Source of the DNA: Bacteroidales bacterium
GTDB lineage: Bacteria; Bacteroidota; Bacteroidia; Bacteroidales; CAIWKO01
Assembly (NCBI GenBank): GCA_035389045.1
Contig: DAOORA010000012.1
Location: forward strand, 1-64,000
Length of the DNA: 64,000 bases
Reading direction: 5' to 3'
Shown here: positions 15,001-21,000 of the stretch, piece by piece
How positions within the stretch are numbered: the first letter of the stretch is position 1
How the letters are laid out: each line of letters opens with the position of its first letter
Program-made: the position numbers

Positions 15001-18000
15001 GGGAAGTTTACCACATGTACAATGGAATAAATGAATGGATTTCAGCCCTCAATCCAACTGTTTCTTGTATTACAGCCGCGCAAAACATTAATAAAACGAA
15101 ACTGTATGAAATTTATCCGAATCCGGCCAGTGATTTTTTAAATATCAATTTTACATCAGAGACTCAGGGAAAATTATTTCTGTATGATATAAACGGGAAA
15201 GCCATCAGGGAGCAAGTTCTTGATCCCGGGTTCCGGCGCATGGATATCTCTGATATCCCGAAAGGAATGTATATCATAAAAATCCTGTCGGATAAAGATG
15301 TGTATACGGAAAAAATCACGATTCTTTAATCCTATTTTCCGCTTAAAAATTCCTTGCATAGCGTCAGGAAAAGAAAGATAATCGACCGGTTACTTAAAAC
15401 CTTAAATCTGCAAGATTTAATTTGTTGATAGTCACGGGGTGACTTAAAAACATTAATTATAAGAAATGACTGACAATCAATTAGTCACCCCGTGACTTGA
15501 GGATTTGATGTAAAACATAAGATCACAAAAATTGGCAAGTGAAAAGGTGGTTTTATTATCATTCAATATCTCAAGACAGGCAAAAGCCTGTTTTAATAAA
15601 ACGGCTACGGTGGAACCTGAGCCGAACCAGAGACAATCATAACTTCTTCTGATAACGATAATATTGTATTGATAGTGCCAGCAATGTATAATCTTCTGCG
15701 CTGAACTTTTTTAAAGTGTAACCTAAGGCCTTTTCAAGTGCTGCAACAACAATATTTTTTGAATTATTAGATAAGCCATTGCATAGGTTGGCGAAAGTAT
15801 TTTTAATCGTGTTAAAAGCCAAGAATGGCTTGACATTAGAAATGTCGCTTTTAGTTGTTACTTGGGTGAATAAATAACCGGAATTTTTCAAAGAGAATAT
15901 GGAATGATCTCCATCGGTATAAAAAACATCAACAGTAACAATATTCCCACTTAGAGCACATTTACCTTTCAGGAACTTATTGGATGGATGTGCACATTTT
16001 GCCAGTGTTTTATATCCACTTTTATTAAAGAAATCACACACTTGAGCATTACCTATTAAATACACAAAACAAAATAAAACGAACAGAAAGAATTTTACTA
16101 TGGTTTTTTTTATAATTATTTACCCTCCACAATCCTGATCTCATCCTCCGTCAACCCATAAAGTTCATACACCATACGGTCAATCTCTTTATCGGTTTTT
16201 TCGATTTCGGATTTCAGGGTCTGGGCTTTTTGCTTTTCAAGTTCAAAATAACTAATCCATTCTGCTTGTTCATAAAGGGGGAGCTTAATCTTTTGCTTAT
16301 CAAGTTCTTTTATGAAGGCTTTGAAATCGAGGGATGGCCAGTCCTGTAATTTGTTTGTGATTTTTAGGGTGGCGAATTTTGAAGACAGGAGTTTTATGAA
16401 TTTTAATAAATGAGCATGCAACTCTTTTGTTTTTAATAGCATTATATCAACCTTGTCAACAAATAGTTTTTGGTCTTTTAAATCAATTGGTTTTATTGGA
16501 ATTCCTCTAACATCTGATAAAGATAATTGTGCAAAATCATCCTTAGTCGCAGTTGTCGAACCCCTAGTTTTTAAAAATGATACTAACTGAGAACACACGA
16601 TTGCCAAGACATATCGTATATCATAACCTGCATCCGTAAGTTTTAAGTTGTAGTAATCCTTTTTATTTACAAATTCTTCATTTACCAGATCAGCCATTAT
16701 CCTGAACTGACGACTGATGATTCTTCTAATTAATAAGCGATCTCCCTGAAAGTATCCAAAATCTTTTGGTTTTTCTTTAAGGTGTTCTCCATAATTAACC
16801 CAAATAAAATCATCTGTATGAATATATCTGTTAAGACTTCCAACGAAATACTTCTTATAGGTTGGAATGTATTCATTTGATACATCATTTTCGTTTGGTA
16901 GTATTCCACGAATAGACGATGAAACAGAACTCAGTGGAACTATATCCTTATTTACTTTGGATAGTAATTCATAAAACACGGGGGAAAGGACTATCCGCAG
17001 GGAAGACAGATTTTGCCAATAAGTACTCGGAAGTTCTTTAAAAGTGATGTCAGTAGTCAGGTCTCCATTGTACTTAGCACGTGTTGGAAAATCATAAACA
17101 AGTGTTGAATAAAACGGCTGAGTTCTTTTTCTTAGAACATAAACACCAGTATCGACATATGCATCTTCAAAAACATCATAAGGGAGCTTAATTGCAATTT
17201 CAAGAGTGCTGTTATTAGAAATGTAATCTCTAAGAAAAAAGTAATTCTCTCCACTCTGCCAGGACACTGGATTAATATAGGAGCAATACCCATTTTTCTT
17301 AATTAACTTAAATGCATGTTGAATAAAAGCACTATAAATATCAAAATTACCTTTATAGCATGTGTAATTAGCAAGTACAAATCTCTTTTCTTTTTCATTC
17401 AAAACAGCACCATACGGCGGATTCCCAATCACCACATCAAAACCACCTTTATATTCGGTGCGGAAGGCGTGTTCGATCGTACAGGTCATTTTATCTATGA
17501 AATGCTGCAAGCCCTTATTCTCATCCAGTATCACAAGGGGCTGCAGCCCCTTGTAGGATTCTACAGTGTCATTGGGCTCGGTGTTGGCTGCCCGGATATC
17601 AGCAAGGGGCTGCAGCCCCTTGCTGATATCCGGCAGATGATGCTTTTCCCGGTTGGTCCGAATGTATTTTATTGTGTTGTACAGTTGTTGTTGATCAGTA
17701 ATCTCAGTTTTGTGAAATTTCTGTTGCCACAAATGAAAGGTCTCGTCTTTGGCAATGGACTTGTATTCCTTGAACTTCTGCGCGGATTTTCCTTTCAGCT
17801 TTCGGACAATATTCGTCAACTCCTCTTCTTCGCATACCAATACGATATGAACATGGTCGTAACAAACATTAAATGCAAGGCAATTCAACAGATCCTCAGT
17901 TATTATATCACAAAAAATTTCGGCAATCTTTATCGAGTCTTCATCGTCAAAACATATGGAACGGTCAATATGCATCTCACCGTTTGCCCTGCGCTGCCGC

Positions 18001-21000
18001 ACCTTATAATCGATCATCCGCTGCGAGGTTCGTGTATCGTGGGTAGCAGTGGTAATGTGCCAGGCCTTCTTTTTCTTTTCCTTAAAAATATCCGGAAATT
18101 CTTTCTGCCAGTTAAACGCTTTAGCACCGGCAACAGAAGGATCATCAATGAGGGAGTTACCGCATTTGATATTGTTATTCAATGAAGTGAGTTTACGGCC
18201 ACGTTGTGCAGTACGCAGCCACAAGGATAAACGGGCGATTTCGACACTCTCTTCGTTGATGTCCACACCGAAAATATTCCTTTCGAGGATATGATTTTCA
18301 ACATCAGGGAAAACGAACGAACTTCCAAGCAACTGTGCCTGCAGTTCGTCAATGTATTGATGCTCTTCAATTAAAAACTCCAATGCCTGGTTCAGAAAAG
18401 CGCCGCTGCCACATGCAGGGTCACATATTGTAATGTTTAACAGCCATTCGCGGTATGCTTTTAATCGGTCGTCAAGTTCATGGAGTGTTGCTTTTTTGCG
18501 TTTACGGCGGTCTTTGGCATATTCTTCATCAATAATGCCGAGTTCTGCCTTTTTTTCTTTGCACAATTTGCCGAGGGTGTTTTCGACAATGTATTTGGTT
18601 ATATACCGGGGAGTATAGAAAATACCGTCTTTCTTGCGTTTGCTTTTACTTCTATCCGCTTCATGCCCTTCAATCTGTGCTTTTACATTTTCAACTTCGT
18701 TCAAACTATTTTCAAAAATATGCCCCAAAATATTGACATCAACCTCACTCTGGAAGTCGTATGTTGAAAGTTTCTTGGTGTGCTTTTGCAATACTTCATC
18801 ATCAATGCTGATGGTATCGAGAATTTCATCGGGTAAAAACAAACCCCCGTTGAAAGCAAAAATATCATCATTGTCGGTTTTCCCCTTCCTGCCAGTATTG
18901 ATATAACCAAAAAACTGCCTGAAAATGTCATAAAGCGGTTTGTAAGCATCTTCTTCTTTGAGCACCTGCCAGCGTTCGACCATACGGATAATAGAATTAG
19001 GGGGCAGCAAACCGCTGTCTTCGGCAAAGTATATGAACAGAAAGCGATCGAGGAGTTTCTGAGTTTTCTTAAATAAAGTCAATTGATCTGCATGAGGATT
19101 TTTCAGTACCATGTTTTGCCAAAGGTCTGTTCGGAAATTTGCGTAGTCCTTATAGAGGTATTTGGTGATATTCTCTTCTTCAAGTAGGCTTTCTTCCTTG
19201 ATCGAAGCCGGAATACCCATTAAAAGACAATCGGCGGCAAGGCATAACCAAAGAAGCTGAAACTCGTTTTCTGTCAGTGTAAAAAGATTAAATTCAAGTT
19301 GATCAACAGAATTATGAATATAGAACCGGATTTTTTCAAAGTTCGAGGTAATTACATAGATACAGTCCGTTTGGTTGTTCTTGTAATTAAAGGCCTGTTG
19401 GTTGATATTATCCAAATGCCGGGTGTCGGTTCCTTTAAGTTCGATAACAGCAATAGCTTTGCCAAGTGATAAAATTGCACCATCGGCTTTTTTGGAACCG
19501 GTAAGGTTCTTAAATTCAGTGGTGAGATTGAAATTCGGTTCGGGGTTGATAGTATAACCAAAGATGTTTACAAACAATTCCCGAAGGAAGCCCTCCTGAA
19601 ATTGTTCTTCTTTGGCATTGCGGATGTTGTTCTGGATTTCGGGATTATGAAAATATGCAGTGAATTTTTTATAGGCAGACTGAACAAGACCAGCATTAAG
19701 GGTTTTGAGGTATCTGTTGATGACAGCGTTCTGAAAAAATGACATAATTATGCATATAATAATGCATAAAAATATAAATTATTTGTCAGATAGGAGAAAA
19801 AAGAAAGAGATTTTATCAGAACAAAAGTATATATTGAAATTCTTATTATTAAATTAATAATCAAAATATTAATCACTTTTTCTTGTTCATCACAGCAGCC
19901 ACAGCAAGTATTATCCCTAAAACGATACCCAGTATGGCTGCAAAAAGCACCTGGAAATGTGCAGGCAGCAGGAACGTAATGGTGTGTGCCGGAAACCAGA
20001 AAAGAGGTATGGTTTTTTTGTAAACGAAGTTCCATTGAACGTCCCAGTTAATACCCGAAAATATTTTTGCAAAAGGTATGGGCGTAACAAGCGACTTTAA
20101 ACTCCCGTGGTTCATGGCAATATGAGTATCTGTGATCTTGTGAAAGGTCATCATCACCGGGGCATAAGCCATATTAAGACAGACACTGATACAGAAGGCC
20201 GATAATAATTTCAATCCGCTGAAGGAACCTTTCATGGCATCTAAAGCGCCCTCTGCACCAAAATATTTTTCAAGACAAACCGGTGTCCCGGTAGAGAATA
20301 TTTTAAATGCTATGGCAATGGTGGCTCCCAGCAAAGCCCATACTACGGCCCGTGGAATAATACCGAAACCTTTCTCAAAATACCTCCCGGTCTTGATACG
20401 CAGCCCTATAAGCTCGCCTGTGGTGGCCAGGATGCTGAATTTAAGCATAGCCAGCAGAATGGGCTGTGCCGTATTTGCTTCAATATAAAATTTATACAAG
20501 GCAGGAAAAACAACAAATGGCAGAAACAGGGCTGCCAGGAACAAAATCATGTACAGGTCTTTGATTTTCATATTTTTATTGAACTAAAATAATAATAAAT
20601 TCATGCAAATAACTATTTATGACCGCGGGTGATACTGAATAATGGCATCCCGCAGGAACTCCCTGTCCAGATGCGTATATATCTCAGTGGTGGTAATGGA
20701 TTCATGTCCCAGCATATCCTGCACAGCCCTCAGGTCGGCGCCTCCTTCGATCAGATGGGTGGCAAATGAATGACGGAATGTGTGAGGACCAATTCTTTTT
20801 TTCAGGCCGATCTTTTCAGCCAGCCCCTTGATGATCAGAAAGATCATCTGTCGGCTCAGCCGGGTACCCCGGCTGTTCAAAAACAGAATATCTGCATTGC
20901 CTTTTTTAATTTCAACATGAACACGCACTTTCTCTATATATATACGGATCTGTTTCATGGCAACCTTTCCTATCGGCGCCAGCCGTTCTTTATTGCCTTT

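What a model noticed while it worked through the whole genome (the two positions that open the first line are those of the whole stretch)
16116..19745. IS200/RAYT-like Y1 transposase domain and its palindrome inserted in frame in the methyltransferase domain of an MmeI-li [...]
Gene g0902 (minus strand, 1209 aa) is a type IIG/IIL restriction-modification fusion. A complete HUH-Y1 transposase domain (aa 556-765, C12:17451-18080) is inserted in frame between methyltransferase motif I and motif IV, and a perfect, translated 42-nt DNA palindrome follows it. The arrangement defines a large, conserved and so far undescribed family. The site is filled in some genes and empty in near-identical ones, so the insert behaves as a (once) mobile element that is made as part of its host protein.
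Evidence so far: Pfam order: MmeI_Mtase(N) - Y1_Tnp (profile 16-120 of 121, E 4.7e-12) - Eco57I/N6_Mtase - TaqI_C. Family size: 187 of 412 candidates at E<=1e-3, and all 120 listed carry PF01797 plus methyltransferase families. Conservation in 93 full-length members: HUH, Tyr694, NPPY and D442/P443 of motif I are 93 of 93; PD-ExK residues 88-89 of 93. Same site: 139 of 164 proteins have both flanks at fixed distances; the other 25 are truncated. Empty-site orthologue: P0266 is 76-90% identical on both sides of the site and lacks the insert. Nine filled places in 60 genomes of the order. 5 of 400 in a phylum sample. Palindrome: present in 13 of 16 genes with DNA, with four paired symmetric changes, three of w [...]
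(Added by a program. Inside this text positions count along the whole contig: contig position 1 is position 1 of the stretch shown here. "Call 12" and the like, gene names such as g00115 and contig names such as C1 are that model's own, and its searches are not shown. The text may have been shortened before it was handed on; [...] marks where a part breaks off. The agent that wrote the report below was given it as the finding of a first reader that could run no searches.)

Follow-up and report, generated by a model that had tools for sequence, protein, structure and literature searches.

The report
REP transposase domain inside restriction enzyme
A restriction-modification enzyme gene carries, in frame inside its methyltransferase domain, a complete hairpin-cutting transposase domain of the REP-associated kind together with that transposase's own DNA palindromes, which are translated as a floppy linker.

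Summary
ORF 16116-19745 (-) is an intact 1209-aa MmeI-like type IIG/IIL enzyme. It has a 211-aa HUH-Y1 domain (aa 555-765) in frame between methyltransferase motifs III and IV, and a perfect 42-nt palindrome.

- There is a second perfect 22-nt palindrome with the same 20-nt core.
- Such palindromes occur in 44 of 47 related genes with DNA, with symmetric centre changes and in different reading frames.
- Free-standing relatives of the domain are flanked by the same palindrome class, which is dispersed in their genomes. The insert is therefore a RAYT-like transposase with its REPs, not a generic IS200.

Further findings:
- The Y1 core is under purifying selection (dN/dS 0.03-0.26). HUH is kept in 130 of 131 members and Tyr in 131 of 131.
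- REP-class palindromes also sit in frame elsewhere in host genes that carry the domain (41 in 22 of 47) and never in empty-site genes (0 in 51).
- The host family is strongly mosaic: the N part, the insert and the C cassette recombine independently. This explains filled and empty alleles without transposition of the insert.
- Embedded domains are not monophyletic (AU p 0.005).
- No excision joint was seen.

Verdict: a new variant of known kinds, of high interest. The mechanism is inferred.

The parts
16116..19745 (-). Intact MmeI-like type IIG/IIL restriction-modification gene, 1209 aa (P0001)
   Evidence: ORF; Pfam domains; BREX PglX models are far below their cut-offs
19431..19487 (-). Nuclease motif region ADGAIL...IELKG (PD-ExK type), aa 87-105
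   Evidence: Positions; read as PD-ExK from recalled knowledge of MmeI-like enzymes; no Pfam nuclease model matched
18084..18473 (-). N-terminal half of the methyltransferase fold: motif I DPACGSG (18402-18422), motif II, motif III IKCGNSL (18150-18170), up to ...EFPDIF
   Evidence: AF2 model
17451..18083 (-). In-frame insert, aa 555-765: a complete RAYT-like HUH-Y1 domain plus a REP-coded tail
   Evidence: Absent from P0105; Pfam Y1_Tnp; Foldseek top hit 4er8 TnpA-REP; alignment with free-standing proteins from their first strand to their C-terminus
17841..17858 (-). HUH motif DHVHIV (His631, His633)
   Evidence: invariant in A4; paired with the HUH of ISDra2 TnpA
17637..17672 (-). Catalytic-Tyr helix IKYIRTNREKHH (Tyr694)
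   Evidence: Y, N, K, H invariant in A4; aligned to the KYIES helix of ISDra2 TnpA
17592..17633 (.). REP copy 1: perfect 42-nt palindrome, translated PDISKGLQPLADIR
17533..17554 (.). REP copy 2: perfect 22-nt palindrome with the same 20-nt core, translated YKGLQPLV
17499..17519 (-). Decayed third REP copy (NKGLQHF)
   Evidence: Read from the sequence
17451..17498 (-). Conserved end of the insert, IDKMTCTIEHAFRTEY: a short helix that leads back into strand beta4; it corresponds to the C-terminus of free-standing relatives
   Evidence: (pLDDT about 90)
16119..17450 (-). C half: KGGFDVVIGNPPY (motif IV, 17409-17426), the rest of the methyltransferase, the TaqI_C target-recognition domain (the variable cassette) and the conserved tail from about aa 1101

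Best explanation
What it is. The gene encodes a working-looking single-chain MmeI-like restriction-modification enzyme. A whole RAYT-type (REP-associated) HUH-Y1 transposase has been fused in frame into a surface loop of its methyltransferase fold, between motif III and strand beta4 with NPPY. Copies of that transposase lineage's own REP palindrome (stem CAAGGGG...CCCCTTG) came with it.

Shown:
- The domain is complete, folds as a separate Y1 domain and keeps HUH and Tyr.
- It is under purifying selection.
- It belongs to a Y1 lineage whose free-standing genes are flanked by the same palindromes, which are dispersed in their genomes.
- The palindromes are kept symmetric at the DNA level, are read in several frames and encode disordered linkers.
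- Extra REP copies sit in frame in permissive loops only of host genes that carry the domain.

Inferred:
- The domain is made as part of the enzyme.
- It binds the REP hairpin in single-stranded DNA. It cuts and rejoins it through HUH-bound metal and Tyr694. It thereby spreads REPs, mostly close to its own gene.
- Restriction and methylation carry on because the loop lies away from the catalytic face.
- Embedding gives the transposase expression. It also protects it from loss, because an imprecise deletion would wreck the methylase of a self-restricting enzyme.

Filled and empty alleles, and the mismatch between the insert, N-part and C-part trees, arise mainly by homologous recombination in the conserved flanks of a highly mosaic gene family. 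At least two independent changes between the free-standing and the embedded state add to this.
For: Identity:
- Pfam Y1_Tnp is over its cut-off.
- A PDB sequence match to ISDra2 TnpA pairs the HUH motif and the Tyr helix.
- The AF2 model of the insert has pLDDT 86.2. Its best Foldseek hit is 4er8, E. coli TnpA-REP on a REP hairpin (E 8.5e-6), followed by IS608 and ISDra2 TnpA.

Fold context:
- The AF2 model of aa 425-905 has pLDDT 83.1 and pTM 0.78.
- The palindrome-coded stretch, aa 709-743, has pLDDT below 50.

Conservation:
- HUH is kept in 130 of 131 filled members and Tyr in 131 of 131 (130 by regular expression, 1 by eye).
- Invariant H, H, Y, N, K, H are shared by embedded and free-standing members.
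- Where dS is 0.1-1.2, dN/dS of the Y1 core is 0.03-0.26. The host N part gives 0.03-0.14 over all pairs with a computable ratio.

REP link:
- 25 of 80 genome loci are free-standing genes.
- Many are bracketed by (AG)AACAAGGGGTTGCAACCCCTTGTT(CT), upstream and in the last codons or just downstream.
- The pattern CAAGGGGN6CCCCTTG occurs 2-22 times in five such genomes. The reversed control gives 0.
- Each genome tested has one Y1 of this lineage.

DNA-level selection of the palindromes:
- 44 of 47 embedded genes have a perfect palindrome (arms of 9 or more) in the insert.
- That is 80 in 29,037 nt, against about 0.8 expected by my own arithmetic.
- The centres differ but stay symmetric: GCTGCAGC, AGCATGCT, GACATGTC, GGCATGCC, GTTGCAAC, GATTAATC.
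- In L024 one palindrome is read as TREHAPLS and as NKGACSLV.

Activity hint:
- 41 REP-class palindromes lie in frame outside the insert in 22 of 47 filled genes.
- None lies in 51 empty-site genes covering 147,360 nt.
- G406 has 29 REP hits, and the embedded domain is its only PF01797 match.
- One REP is present in one MmeI paralogue of G406 and absent in the other.

Recombination:
- L128 and L131 are 97-100% identical in DNA through the N part, the insert and the NPPY codons. They are then about 50% identical, and 97-100% again from about 110 aa before the end.
- Among pairs with N identity of 88% or more, the C cassette differs in 76 of 84 filled-filled, 36 of 37 empty-empty and 36 of 36 mixed pairs.
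- Insert identity does not track N identity.
- Filled against empty needs at least 19 changes on the N tree, 12 of them forced by starred branches.
Against: - No biochemical evidence exists.
- The window's own genome holds only the two REP copies inside the gene, so nothing shows current activity here.
- REPs in filled genes but not in empty ones could reflect co-inheritance rather than local transposition.
- G064 (31 dispersed REPs) and G407 hold other Y1 genes (13 and 5 PF01797 matches). The completeness of G406 is not known.
- Five genomes without a close Y1 of this lineage still carry 3-42 copies of the pattern.
- NCBIfam's RAYT model scores 46.9 against a cut-off of 80.
- The P proteins are representatives of 90% clusters. 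This inflates the share of pairs with different C cassettes.
- The trees are FastTree or quick IQ-TREE trees with many weak forks.
- 'Protection from loss' and 'away from the catalytic face' are inferences. I did not measure distances in the model.
Confidence: 0.55

Rival explanations
1. Self-mobile in-frame element. The Y1 domain plus palindrome is an IS200/IS605-like element. It inserts into and excises seamlessly from this one site by single-strand 'peel and paste', and it is translated as part of its host.
For: - Embedded domains are not one clade: 8 changes between embedded and free-standing on the tree, and the AU test rejects monophyly (p 0.005, lnL difference 68).
- A shared insertion of about 15 aa unites embedded L134/L152/L160 with free-standing L158/L169.
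- Different Y1 lineages therefore sit at the identical site.
- 53 of 55 empty genes have exactly 39 aa from motif III to motif IV and no scars.
- The catalytic residues are kept.
Against: - There is one copy per genome.
- No hairpin lies near the 5' junction, and both window palindromes lie 3' of the Tyr helix.
- No target duplication or clear junction signature was found.
- No joint skipping the insert appeared in three DNA runs and one RNA run. These were contigs only, so power is low.
- The filled form was not found in 72,556 plasmids.
- Recombination in the conserved flanks, directly visible, explains clean filled and empty alleles.
- Replacement of a resident insert by a relative through homology within Y1 could mimic repeated capture.
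Confidence: 0.13
2. Working part of the defence enzyme. The Y1/REP module is functionally coupled to type IIG restriction-modification. For example, nicks at REP hairpins next to the cassette border could stimulate exchange of the specificity cassette, or the enzyme could gain activity on hairpins in single-stranded foreign DNA.
For: - Of 25 free-standing Y1 genes, 4 lie beside HSDR_N-MmeI_Mtase-Eco57I-TaqI_C genes. In L103 the RM gene starts 6 nt after the Y1 stop. In L117 it ends where Y1 starts. In L100 a REP lies between the two genes. In L102 the gap is 1.4 kb.
- In G406 and G407, REPs lie in frame in other RM genes: 4 in two MmeI paralogues of G406; 2 in an MmeI_Mtase ORF, 1 in an MmeI_TRD/C ORF and 1 in HsdS of G407.
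- The insert sits 13 aa before the left border of the hypervariable C cassette. REPs recur 51-157 aa from the ORF end, near its right border.
- The domain is under purifying selection.
Against: - Empty-site genes swap C cassettes just as freely (36 of 37 close pairs), so Y1 is not needed for that.
- The break lies after the NPPY codons and about 85 nt from the C-terminal REP, not at a palindrome.
- Close filled and empty pairs show that the domain is dispensable for an intact gene.
- In G064, all 21 REPs examined are extragenic.
- No silent cassette exists in the window's genome.
Confidence: 0.22
3. Tolerated relic. The insert is an old fusion accident that is neutral for the host and no longer active. 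The palindromes persist as RNA or DNA structure, or by chance.
For: - The window genome has no REP outside the gene.
- The palindrome-coded peptide is disordered.
- The third REP copy is decayed.
Against: - dN/dS of the Y1 core is 0.03-0.26, and the catalytic residues are kept in 130-131 of 131 members.
- The palindromes stay perfectly symmetric through changes of their centres.
- The same palindromes lie outside ORFs next to free-standing genes, so an mRNA-only role is unlikely.
Confidence: 0.1

Closest known systems
RAYT / TnpA-REP with REP sequences (E. coli TnpA-REP, PDB 4er8; classes of Quentin et al. 2018, PMC6006769; Bertels et al. 2017, PMC5581495)
   Same: - HUH-Y1 fold. 4er8 is the best structural match.
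- One gene per genome.
- Cognate palindromes flank free-standing members and are dispersed in genomes.
- REP copies lie inside the transposase gene itself. Quentin et al. report this as typical of their subclass 2.4 (I read section 23 and the Table 1 text).
- The Tyr motif YIxNNR resembles their YIxNNP.
   Different: - It has no start or stop codon of its own and sits in frame inside another enzyme's catalytic domain.
- The REPs are perfect palindromes without an evident asymmetric 5' tetranucleotide, and they are translated.
- HUH reads DH[VI]H, not the NH.H of subclass 2.4.
- NCBIfam's RAYT equivalog cut-off is not reached (46.9 against 80).
- Quentin et al. state that unexpectedly long proteins (fusions or annotation errors) were discarded. 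Forms like this one would therefore have been dropped.
IS200/IS605 TnpA (IS608, ISDra2)
   Same: The same fold and catalytic motifs. Hairpin-recognising single-strand chemistry is expected (inference).
   Different: - Not multi-copy.
- No subterminal hairpins at both ends of the unit.
- The IS200 equivalog model is below its cut-off (30.5 against 55).
- No sign of excision.
MmeI-family type IIL / type IIG enzymes
   Same: Nuclease, helical spacer, gamma-class N6A methyltransferase and TaqI_C-type recognition domain in one chain. The specificity part is swappable.
   Different: - A 211-aa foreign domain is inserted between motifs III and IV.
- The MmeI_N, MmeI_TRD and MmeI_C models do not match. 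It is therefore a sister family (Eco57I/TaqI_C type), not MmeI proper.
Rickettsia palindromic elements (review PMC10969869, passages read)
   Same: Short palindromic repeats are inserted in frame in protein-coding genes and translated in tolerated positions.
   Different: - Here the repeats are 20-42 nt rather than about 150 bp.
- They lie beside their presumed mobilising enzyme.
- In two genomes they concentrate in restriction-modification genes.
Inteins with homing endonucleases, and IStrons (recalled from memory, not tested here)
   Same: A selfish nucleic-acid enzyme rides inside a host gene without destroying it.
   Different: No splicing at the protein or RNA level is indicated. The domain stays in the mature protein.

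Membership tests
HUH-Y1 transposase superfamily (Pfam PF01797 Y1_Tnp) | Profile match over the curated cut-off | tested here: met
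   46.3 bits against a cut-off of 23, aa 595-697
HUH-Y1 transposase superfamily (Pfam PF01797 Y1_Tnp) | HUH metal-binding motif and catalytic Tyr on the C-terminal helix | tested here: met
   DHVHIV 630-635 and Tyr694; aligned to the same motifs of ISDra2 TnpA; invariant in A4
HUH-Y1 transposase superfamily (Pfam PF01797 Y1_Tnp) | Fold | tested here: met
   AF2 pLDDT 86.2. The 28 Foldseek hits with E up to 0.001 begin with 4er8, IS608, ISDra2 and IS200 TnpA. TM scores are 0.34-0.44 on the query length and 0.52-0.70 on the target length
RAYT (REP-associated tyrosine transposase) | Curated equivalog model NF047646 | tested here: not met
   46.9 bits against a cut-off of 80
RAYT (REP-associated tyrosine transposase) | Single copy per genome | tested here: met
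   One match in G000; one per genome in 6 phylum genomes (two rows each for G012 and G034 are parts of one frame); one each in G402, G405, G406, G407 and G408
RAYT (REP-associated tyrosine transposase) | Gene associated with a cognate palindrome that also occurs elsewhere in the genome | tested here: inconclusive
   Met in relatives: free-standing genes are flanked and have 2-22 genomic copies. Embedded carriers G406, G407 and G064 have 29, 12 and 31 copies. In the window's own genome only 2 copies exist, both inside the gene
RAYT (REP-associated tyrosine transposase) | Binds and cleaves its REP hairpin | not testable with these tools
   Needs biochemistry
IS200/IS605 insertion sequence | Multi-copy autonomous unit with subterminal hairpins at both ends | tested here: not met
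   Single copy. Palindromes lie only 3' of the Tyr helix in the window, none near 18083. The IS200 model scores 30.5 against a cut-off of 55
MmeI-like type IIG/IIL restriction-modification enzyme | One chain with a nuclease motif, helical spacer, N6A methyltransferase motifs I and IV, and a recognition domain | tested here: met
   MmeI_hel 30.1 bits (cut-off 27), MmeI_Mtase 49.2 (27), Eco57I 130.6 (25.3), TaqI_C 32.1 (26.5). DPACGSG, NPPY and ADGAIL...IELKG are present. Enzyme activity was not tested
BREX PglX | Curated PglX model and BREX neighbours | tested here: not met
   BREX_1_MTaseX scores 137.8 bits against a cut-off of 500. Of 13 neighbouring ORFs scanned, 5 had no Pfam match. The other 8 are ABC-transporter parts, a rhodanese-domain protein, a tyrosine recombinase and housekeeping genes. 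None is a BREX component

The most novel reading that the evidence does not exclude
The Y1/REP module may be a dedicated recombination device for restriction-modification genes. In this reading, REP hairpins planted in frame at domain borders of type IIG, MmeI and HsdS genes are substrates of a transposase domain built into, or encoded beside, the enzyme. Their nicking or strand transfer would then drive exchange of nuclease, methylase and specificity modules between alleles and paralogues. That would be a diversity generator for defence specificity based on HUH chemistry.
Probability: 0.15. Interest if true: 0.92.

Novelty: new variant of a known kind. Interest (0 to 1): 0.74.

Why it matters
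- What RAYTs do for their hosts, and how REPs spread, are open questions. This is a RAYT-type domain whose expression and location are fixed inside a known enzyme, with its REPs a few codons away. It occurs in cultured bacteria named in the tool outputs: Confluentibacter flavum, Membranihabitans marinus, Flavobacterium sp. 83 and Parasediminibacterium sp. JCM 36343. REP binding, cleavage and local spread become directly testable.
- It shows that a catalytic Rossmann domain tolerates a 165-389-aa foreign domain, plus translated palindromes, between motifs III and IV.
- It links a single-strand DNA transposase lineage to restriction-modification genes in three arrangements: embedded, adjacent, and REPs in frame.
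- It exposes a gene family whose specificity cassette is exchanged between alleles that are otherwise 99-100% identical.

Tried and rejected
- Read laying on three DNA contig runs and one RNA contig run: no joint across 17451-18083. Contigs drop rare variants, so this says little. The single large joint (16169 to 17411, with 1247 other letters between) is a relative with another C cassette.
- Two RNA contigs of X4 (17897-18047 and 18059-18209) match exactly. This is only a weak hint of transcription.
A 7-sequence alignment, A2, worked.
- P0105's own contig was not returned, so the closest empty site could not be compared at the DNA level. More distant filled and empty pairs showed no target duplication.
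- 'REPs target RM genes in general' is rejected as a rule: in G064, all 21 REPs examined are extragenic.
- 'Y1 is needed for cassette exchange' is rejected: empty genes swap cassettes too.
- 'The palindrome is a genome-wide REP in this genome' is rejected.
- 'Silent cassettes nearby' is rejected: the own genome has only a 29%-identical PglX-like gene on C53.
- Plasmid search: 34 records, all matching only the 56-aa methylase flank.
- The phage collection was not searched.
- Supplementary figures of Quentin et al. (S10, REP insertions in tnpA genes) were not read and could hold closer precedents.

Full report

The minus-strand ORF 16116..19745 gives a 1209-aa protein, P0001. Pfam finds, in order, MmeI_hel, MmeI_Mtase (425-551), Y1_Tnp (595-697; 46.3 bits against a cut-off of 23), Eco57I and N6_Mtase (742-903), and TaqI_C (982-1084).

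Motif I is at aa 442-448, motif III at 526-532 and NPPY at 775-778. The foreign domain therefore lies between motifs III and IV.

The closest empty relative is P0105 (999 aa). It is 88% identical to aa 1-554 and 86% to aa 766-1208, with one alanine in place of aa 555-765.

The 42-nt palindrome at 17592-17633 is perfect. A second perfect 22-nt palindrome at 17533-17554 shares its 20-nt core. A decayed third copy follows.

**2. The family**

- With motif anchors, 185 of 315 ORFs or proteins had motifs I, III and IV. Motif III to IV is 39 aa in 53 empty genes, 44 in L079 and 91 in L035. It is 204-427 aa in 130 filled ones.
- The insert always starts xEKxKKxWHIT... and ends ...C(T/S)xEHAFRTEY, just before KGGFDVVIGNPPY.
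- HUH is present in 130 of 131 members (P0052 reads DHIY). The Tyr motif is present in 131 of 131, one of them checked by eye.
- In a sample of 400 other genomes of the phylum, 6 carry it. All are in frames of 1197-1273 aa, one copy each. None of the 7 same-order genomes did.
- Longer hits with other nuclease types (HSDR_N, MmeI_N) have the domain at the same place.

**3. What the insert is**

By sequence it aligns to ISDra2 TnpA, with HUH and the Tyr helix paired. The AF2 model of the insert alone (pLDDT 86.2) has E. coli TnpA-REP bound to a REP hairpin (4er8) as its best Foldseek hit, then IS608 and ISDra2 TnpA.

A search of 1.84 billion representatives with the insert gave 372 hits. Among them are proteins of 150-250 aa that start with Met, span the whole domain and often end with the same NKGLQPLV peptide.

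In genomes, 80 loci were returned. I classed 43 as embedded, 25 as free-standing (frames of 112-255 aa, not at contig ends) and 12 as unclassified.

The free-standing genes are bracketed by the same palindrome class, for example AGAACAAGGGGTTGCAACCCCTTGTTCT. One copy lies upstream of or over the start. One lies in the last codons or just downstream. Some loci have clusters on both sides.

The pattern CAAGGGGN6CCCCTTG occurs 3, 17, 2, 16 and 22 times in five such genomes, with 0 for the reversed control. Each genome tested has one Y1 of this lineage.

This is the logic of a RAYT with its REPs. It fits a note by Quentin et al. (PMC6006769; I read the find passages, the Table 1 text and sections 18 and 23) that one TnpA-REP subclass typically has REP insertions inside its own gene. 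That paper also says unexpectedly long proteins were discarded. NCBIfam's RAYT and IS200 equivalog models are both below their cut-offs, so I do not file the domain as a member of either curated family.

**4. The palindromes are selected as nucleic acid**

- Of 47 distinct embedded genes with DNA (window included), 44 have at least one perfect palindrome (arms of 9 or more, loop of 6 or less) in the insert. L057, L065 and L155 have none at this cut. L057 and L065 have one at a looser cut.
- There are 80 in 29,037 nt. My own arithmetic gives about 0.8 expected by chance.
- The arms are shared (ACAAGGG...CCCTTGT). The centres differ between genes but stay symmetric.
- The same palindrome is read in two frames within one gene (L024: TREHAPLS and NKGACSLV).
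- They sit before HUH (8), in the loop between HUH and Tyr (39) and after Tyr (33).
- In the AF2 model of aa 425-905 (pLDDT 83.1, pTM 0.78), the palindrome-coded stretch aa 709-743 has pLDDT below 50. The terminal IDKMTCTIEHAFRTEY is confident.

**5. REPs outside the insert**

In 22 of the 47 filled genes, 41 REP-class palindromes lie in frame elsewhere in the host ORF, at recurrent spots:
- the nuclease loop ADGAIL^KAIAVIELKG;
- about aa 220;
- about aa 360-375;
- 14-15 aa before the insert;
- 51-157 aa from the end.

In 51 empty-site ORFs (147,360 nt) there are 9 palindromes. All are AT-rich and none is of the REP class. The window gene has none outside the insert.

Genome-wide counts in carriers of the embedded form:

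| Genome | Pattern hits | Where |
|---|---|---|
| G406 | 29 | 10 in the gene's contig region |
| G407 | 12 | 6 in the gene |
| G408 | 7 | 6 in the gene |
| G409 | 3 | all in the gene contig |
| G410 | 2 | both in the gene |
| G064 | 31 | spread over 26 contigs |
| G000 (window genome) | 2 | both in the gene |

Where the copies outside the gene lie:
- G406, 15 of the 19 outside copies examined: 4 lie in frame in two MmeI-family paralogues, 3 in an 860-aa ORF with no Pfam match, 1 in a C39-ABC transporter ORF, 1 at the start of a PCMD ORF and 6 in short frames.
- G407, all 6 examined: 2 lie in an MmeI_Mtase ORF, 1 in an MmeI_TRD/C ORF, 1 in HsdS and 2 in short frames.
- G064, 21 examined: all are extragenic 36-nt palindromes with conserved flanks.

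REPs inside RM genes are therefore a feature of some genomes, not a rule.

G406's only PF01797 match is the embedded domain. G064 and G407 have 13 and 5 matches.

In the phylum sample the pattern occurs in 13 of 400 other genomes. That includes 4 of the 6 carriers, but also 9 of 394 non-carriers. Five of those 9 hold only weak Y1 matches.

**6. Selection**

Where dS is 0.1-1.2, dN/dS of the Y1 core is 0.03-0.26. Examples, given as N-terminal part and Tyr-helix part of the core:
- L091/L092: 0.04 and 0.03;
- L147/L110: 0.075 and 0.096;
- L065/L068: 0.09 and 0.16;
- L173/L175: 0.17 and 0.26.

The host N part gives 0.03-0.14 over all pairs with a computable ratio.

**7. Mosaic host family**

Segment identities to P0001 show a conserved N part (50-86%). 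The C1 and C2 cassette is mostly 27-45% identical, or below 30%. The tail is conserved again. Insert identity follows neither the N part nor the C part.

L128 and L131 are 97-100% identical in DNA from nt 61 through the insert to the NPPY codons. They are about 50% identical up to about nt 3194, then 97-100% again. The same left break is seen in L106/L147, L065/L068 and L063/L080. In L063/L080 the insert differs too.

There are 157 pairs with N identity of 88% or more. The C cassette differs in 76 of 84 filled-filled, 36 of 37 empty-empty and 36 of 36 mixed pairs. One caveat is that the P proteins are representatives of 90% clusters.

On the N tree (131 rows), filled against empty needs at least 19 changes, 12 of them forced by starred branches. 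Recombination in the conserved flanks therefore suffices to create clean filled and empty alleles. It occurs with or without the domain.

**8. Free-standing against embedded**

- On a Y1 tree of 131 embedded and 37 free-standing-like representatives, the label needs 13 changes.
- With 47 embedded and 21 verified free-standing genes it needs 8, and the AU test rejects one embedded clade (p 0.005).
- A shared insertion before the Tyr helix backs one mixed clade.
- Four of 25 free-standing genes lie beside type IIG RM genes: L103, L100, L117 and L102.

**9. Mobility of the insert itself**

- No excision joint was found in public contigs.
- There is no second copy in the genome.
- No filled form occurs in PLSDB plasmids.
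- No target duplication was found.

**10. Literature**

Six searches found no paper on a Y1 or RAYT domain inside a methyltransferase or restriction enzyme. Bertels et al. 2017 was checked by term search only. The MITE review PMC10969869 (passages read) gives the Rickettsia palindromic elements as a precedent for translated palindromic inserts. Automatic annotations already name both domains.

**11. Verdict**

The best reading is a RAYT-type domain with its REPs, fused into a permissive loop of a mosaic type IIG enzyme. The domain is kept by selection and is probably active on its REPs.

Whether it serves the enzyme, only rides in it, or can still move as a unit is open. The odds I give are 0.55, 0.22, 0.13 and 0.10 for the four readings.

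Noticed in passing
window 16119-17408 and related loci L128/L131, L106/L147, P0055/P0072/P0087/P0095/P0101: The stretch from just after the NPPY codons to about 110 aa before the end behaves as an exchangeable cassette. It holds the rest of the methylase and the recognition domain. Alleles that are 99-100% identical in the N part and the insert have C cassettes only 24-37% identical.
   Followed up: partly
window 20617-21516 (-), with small ORFs 19748-20035 and 19873-20571 (-): A XerC/D-like tyrosine recombinase (Phage_integrase plus SAM_1) lies just upstream of the RM gene. Two small ORFs without Pfam matches separate them. Whether it is the housekeeping Xer or linked to the RM gene was not examined.
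   Followed up: no
L103 2977-6371; L100 10-3627; L117 2-3528: Free-standing Y1 genes of this lineage lie directly beside type IIG RM genes (HSDR_N-MmeI_Mtase-Eco57I-TaqI_C) on the same strand. In L100 a REP lies between the two genes.
   Followed up: partly
L196 1233-4346 and L195 2140-5094 (genome G406): Two MmeI-family paralogues carry REPs in frame. One REP (aa 993 of L196) is absent from the other copy, as a 7-aa indel.
   Followed up: partly
L035 (metagenome locus), insert site: One 'empty' gene has an unrelated 53-aa filler at the site, starting PFYKSKKKN, which faintly recalls the start of the insert. L079 has 6 residues there. These may be scars of lost inserts.
   Followed up: no
L201-L220 (genome G064): A 36-nt perfect palindrome, AAGTCAGACAAGGGGTTGCAACCCCTTGTCTGACTT, with conserved flanks is present in at least 21 extragenic copies. 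It is probably a REPIN- or MITE-like unit.
   Followed up: partly
window 17316-18185 (+): A 289-aa antisense open frame spans the Y1-coding region. It is probably a by-product of codon composition and was not examined.
   Followed up: no
G000 contigs C8, C23, C28, C36, C51, C110: The genome has seven other PF01797 matches, one strong IS200-like (C8, 96.5 bits). None is similar to the insert.
   Followed up: partly
G000 C53:26588-27757: A second, 1463-aa PglX/MmeI-like frame is 29% identical to the C half.
   Followed up: no
window 17412-17633, run X1: Public assembly contigs of the probable source run break at the two palindromes, and one contig is exactly the 42-nt palindrome. Such repeats may fragment assemblies of these genes.
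   Followed up: no
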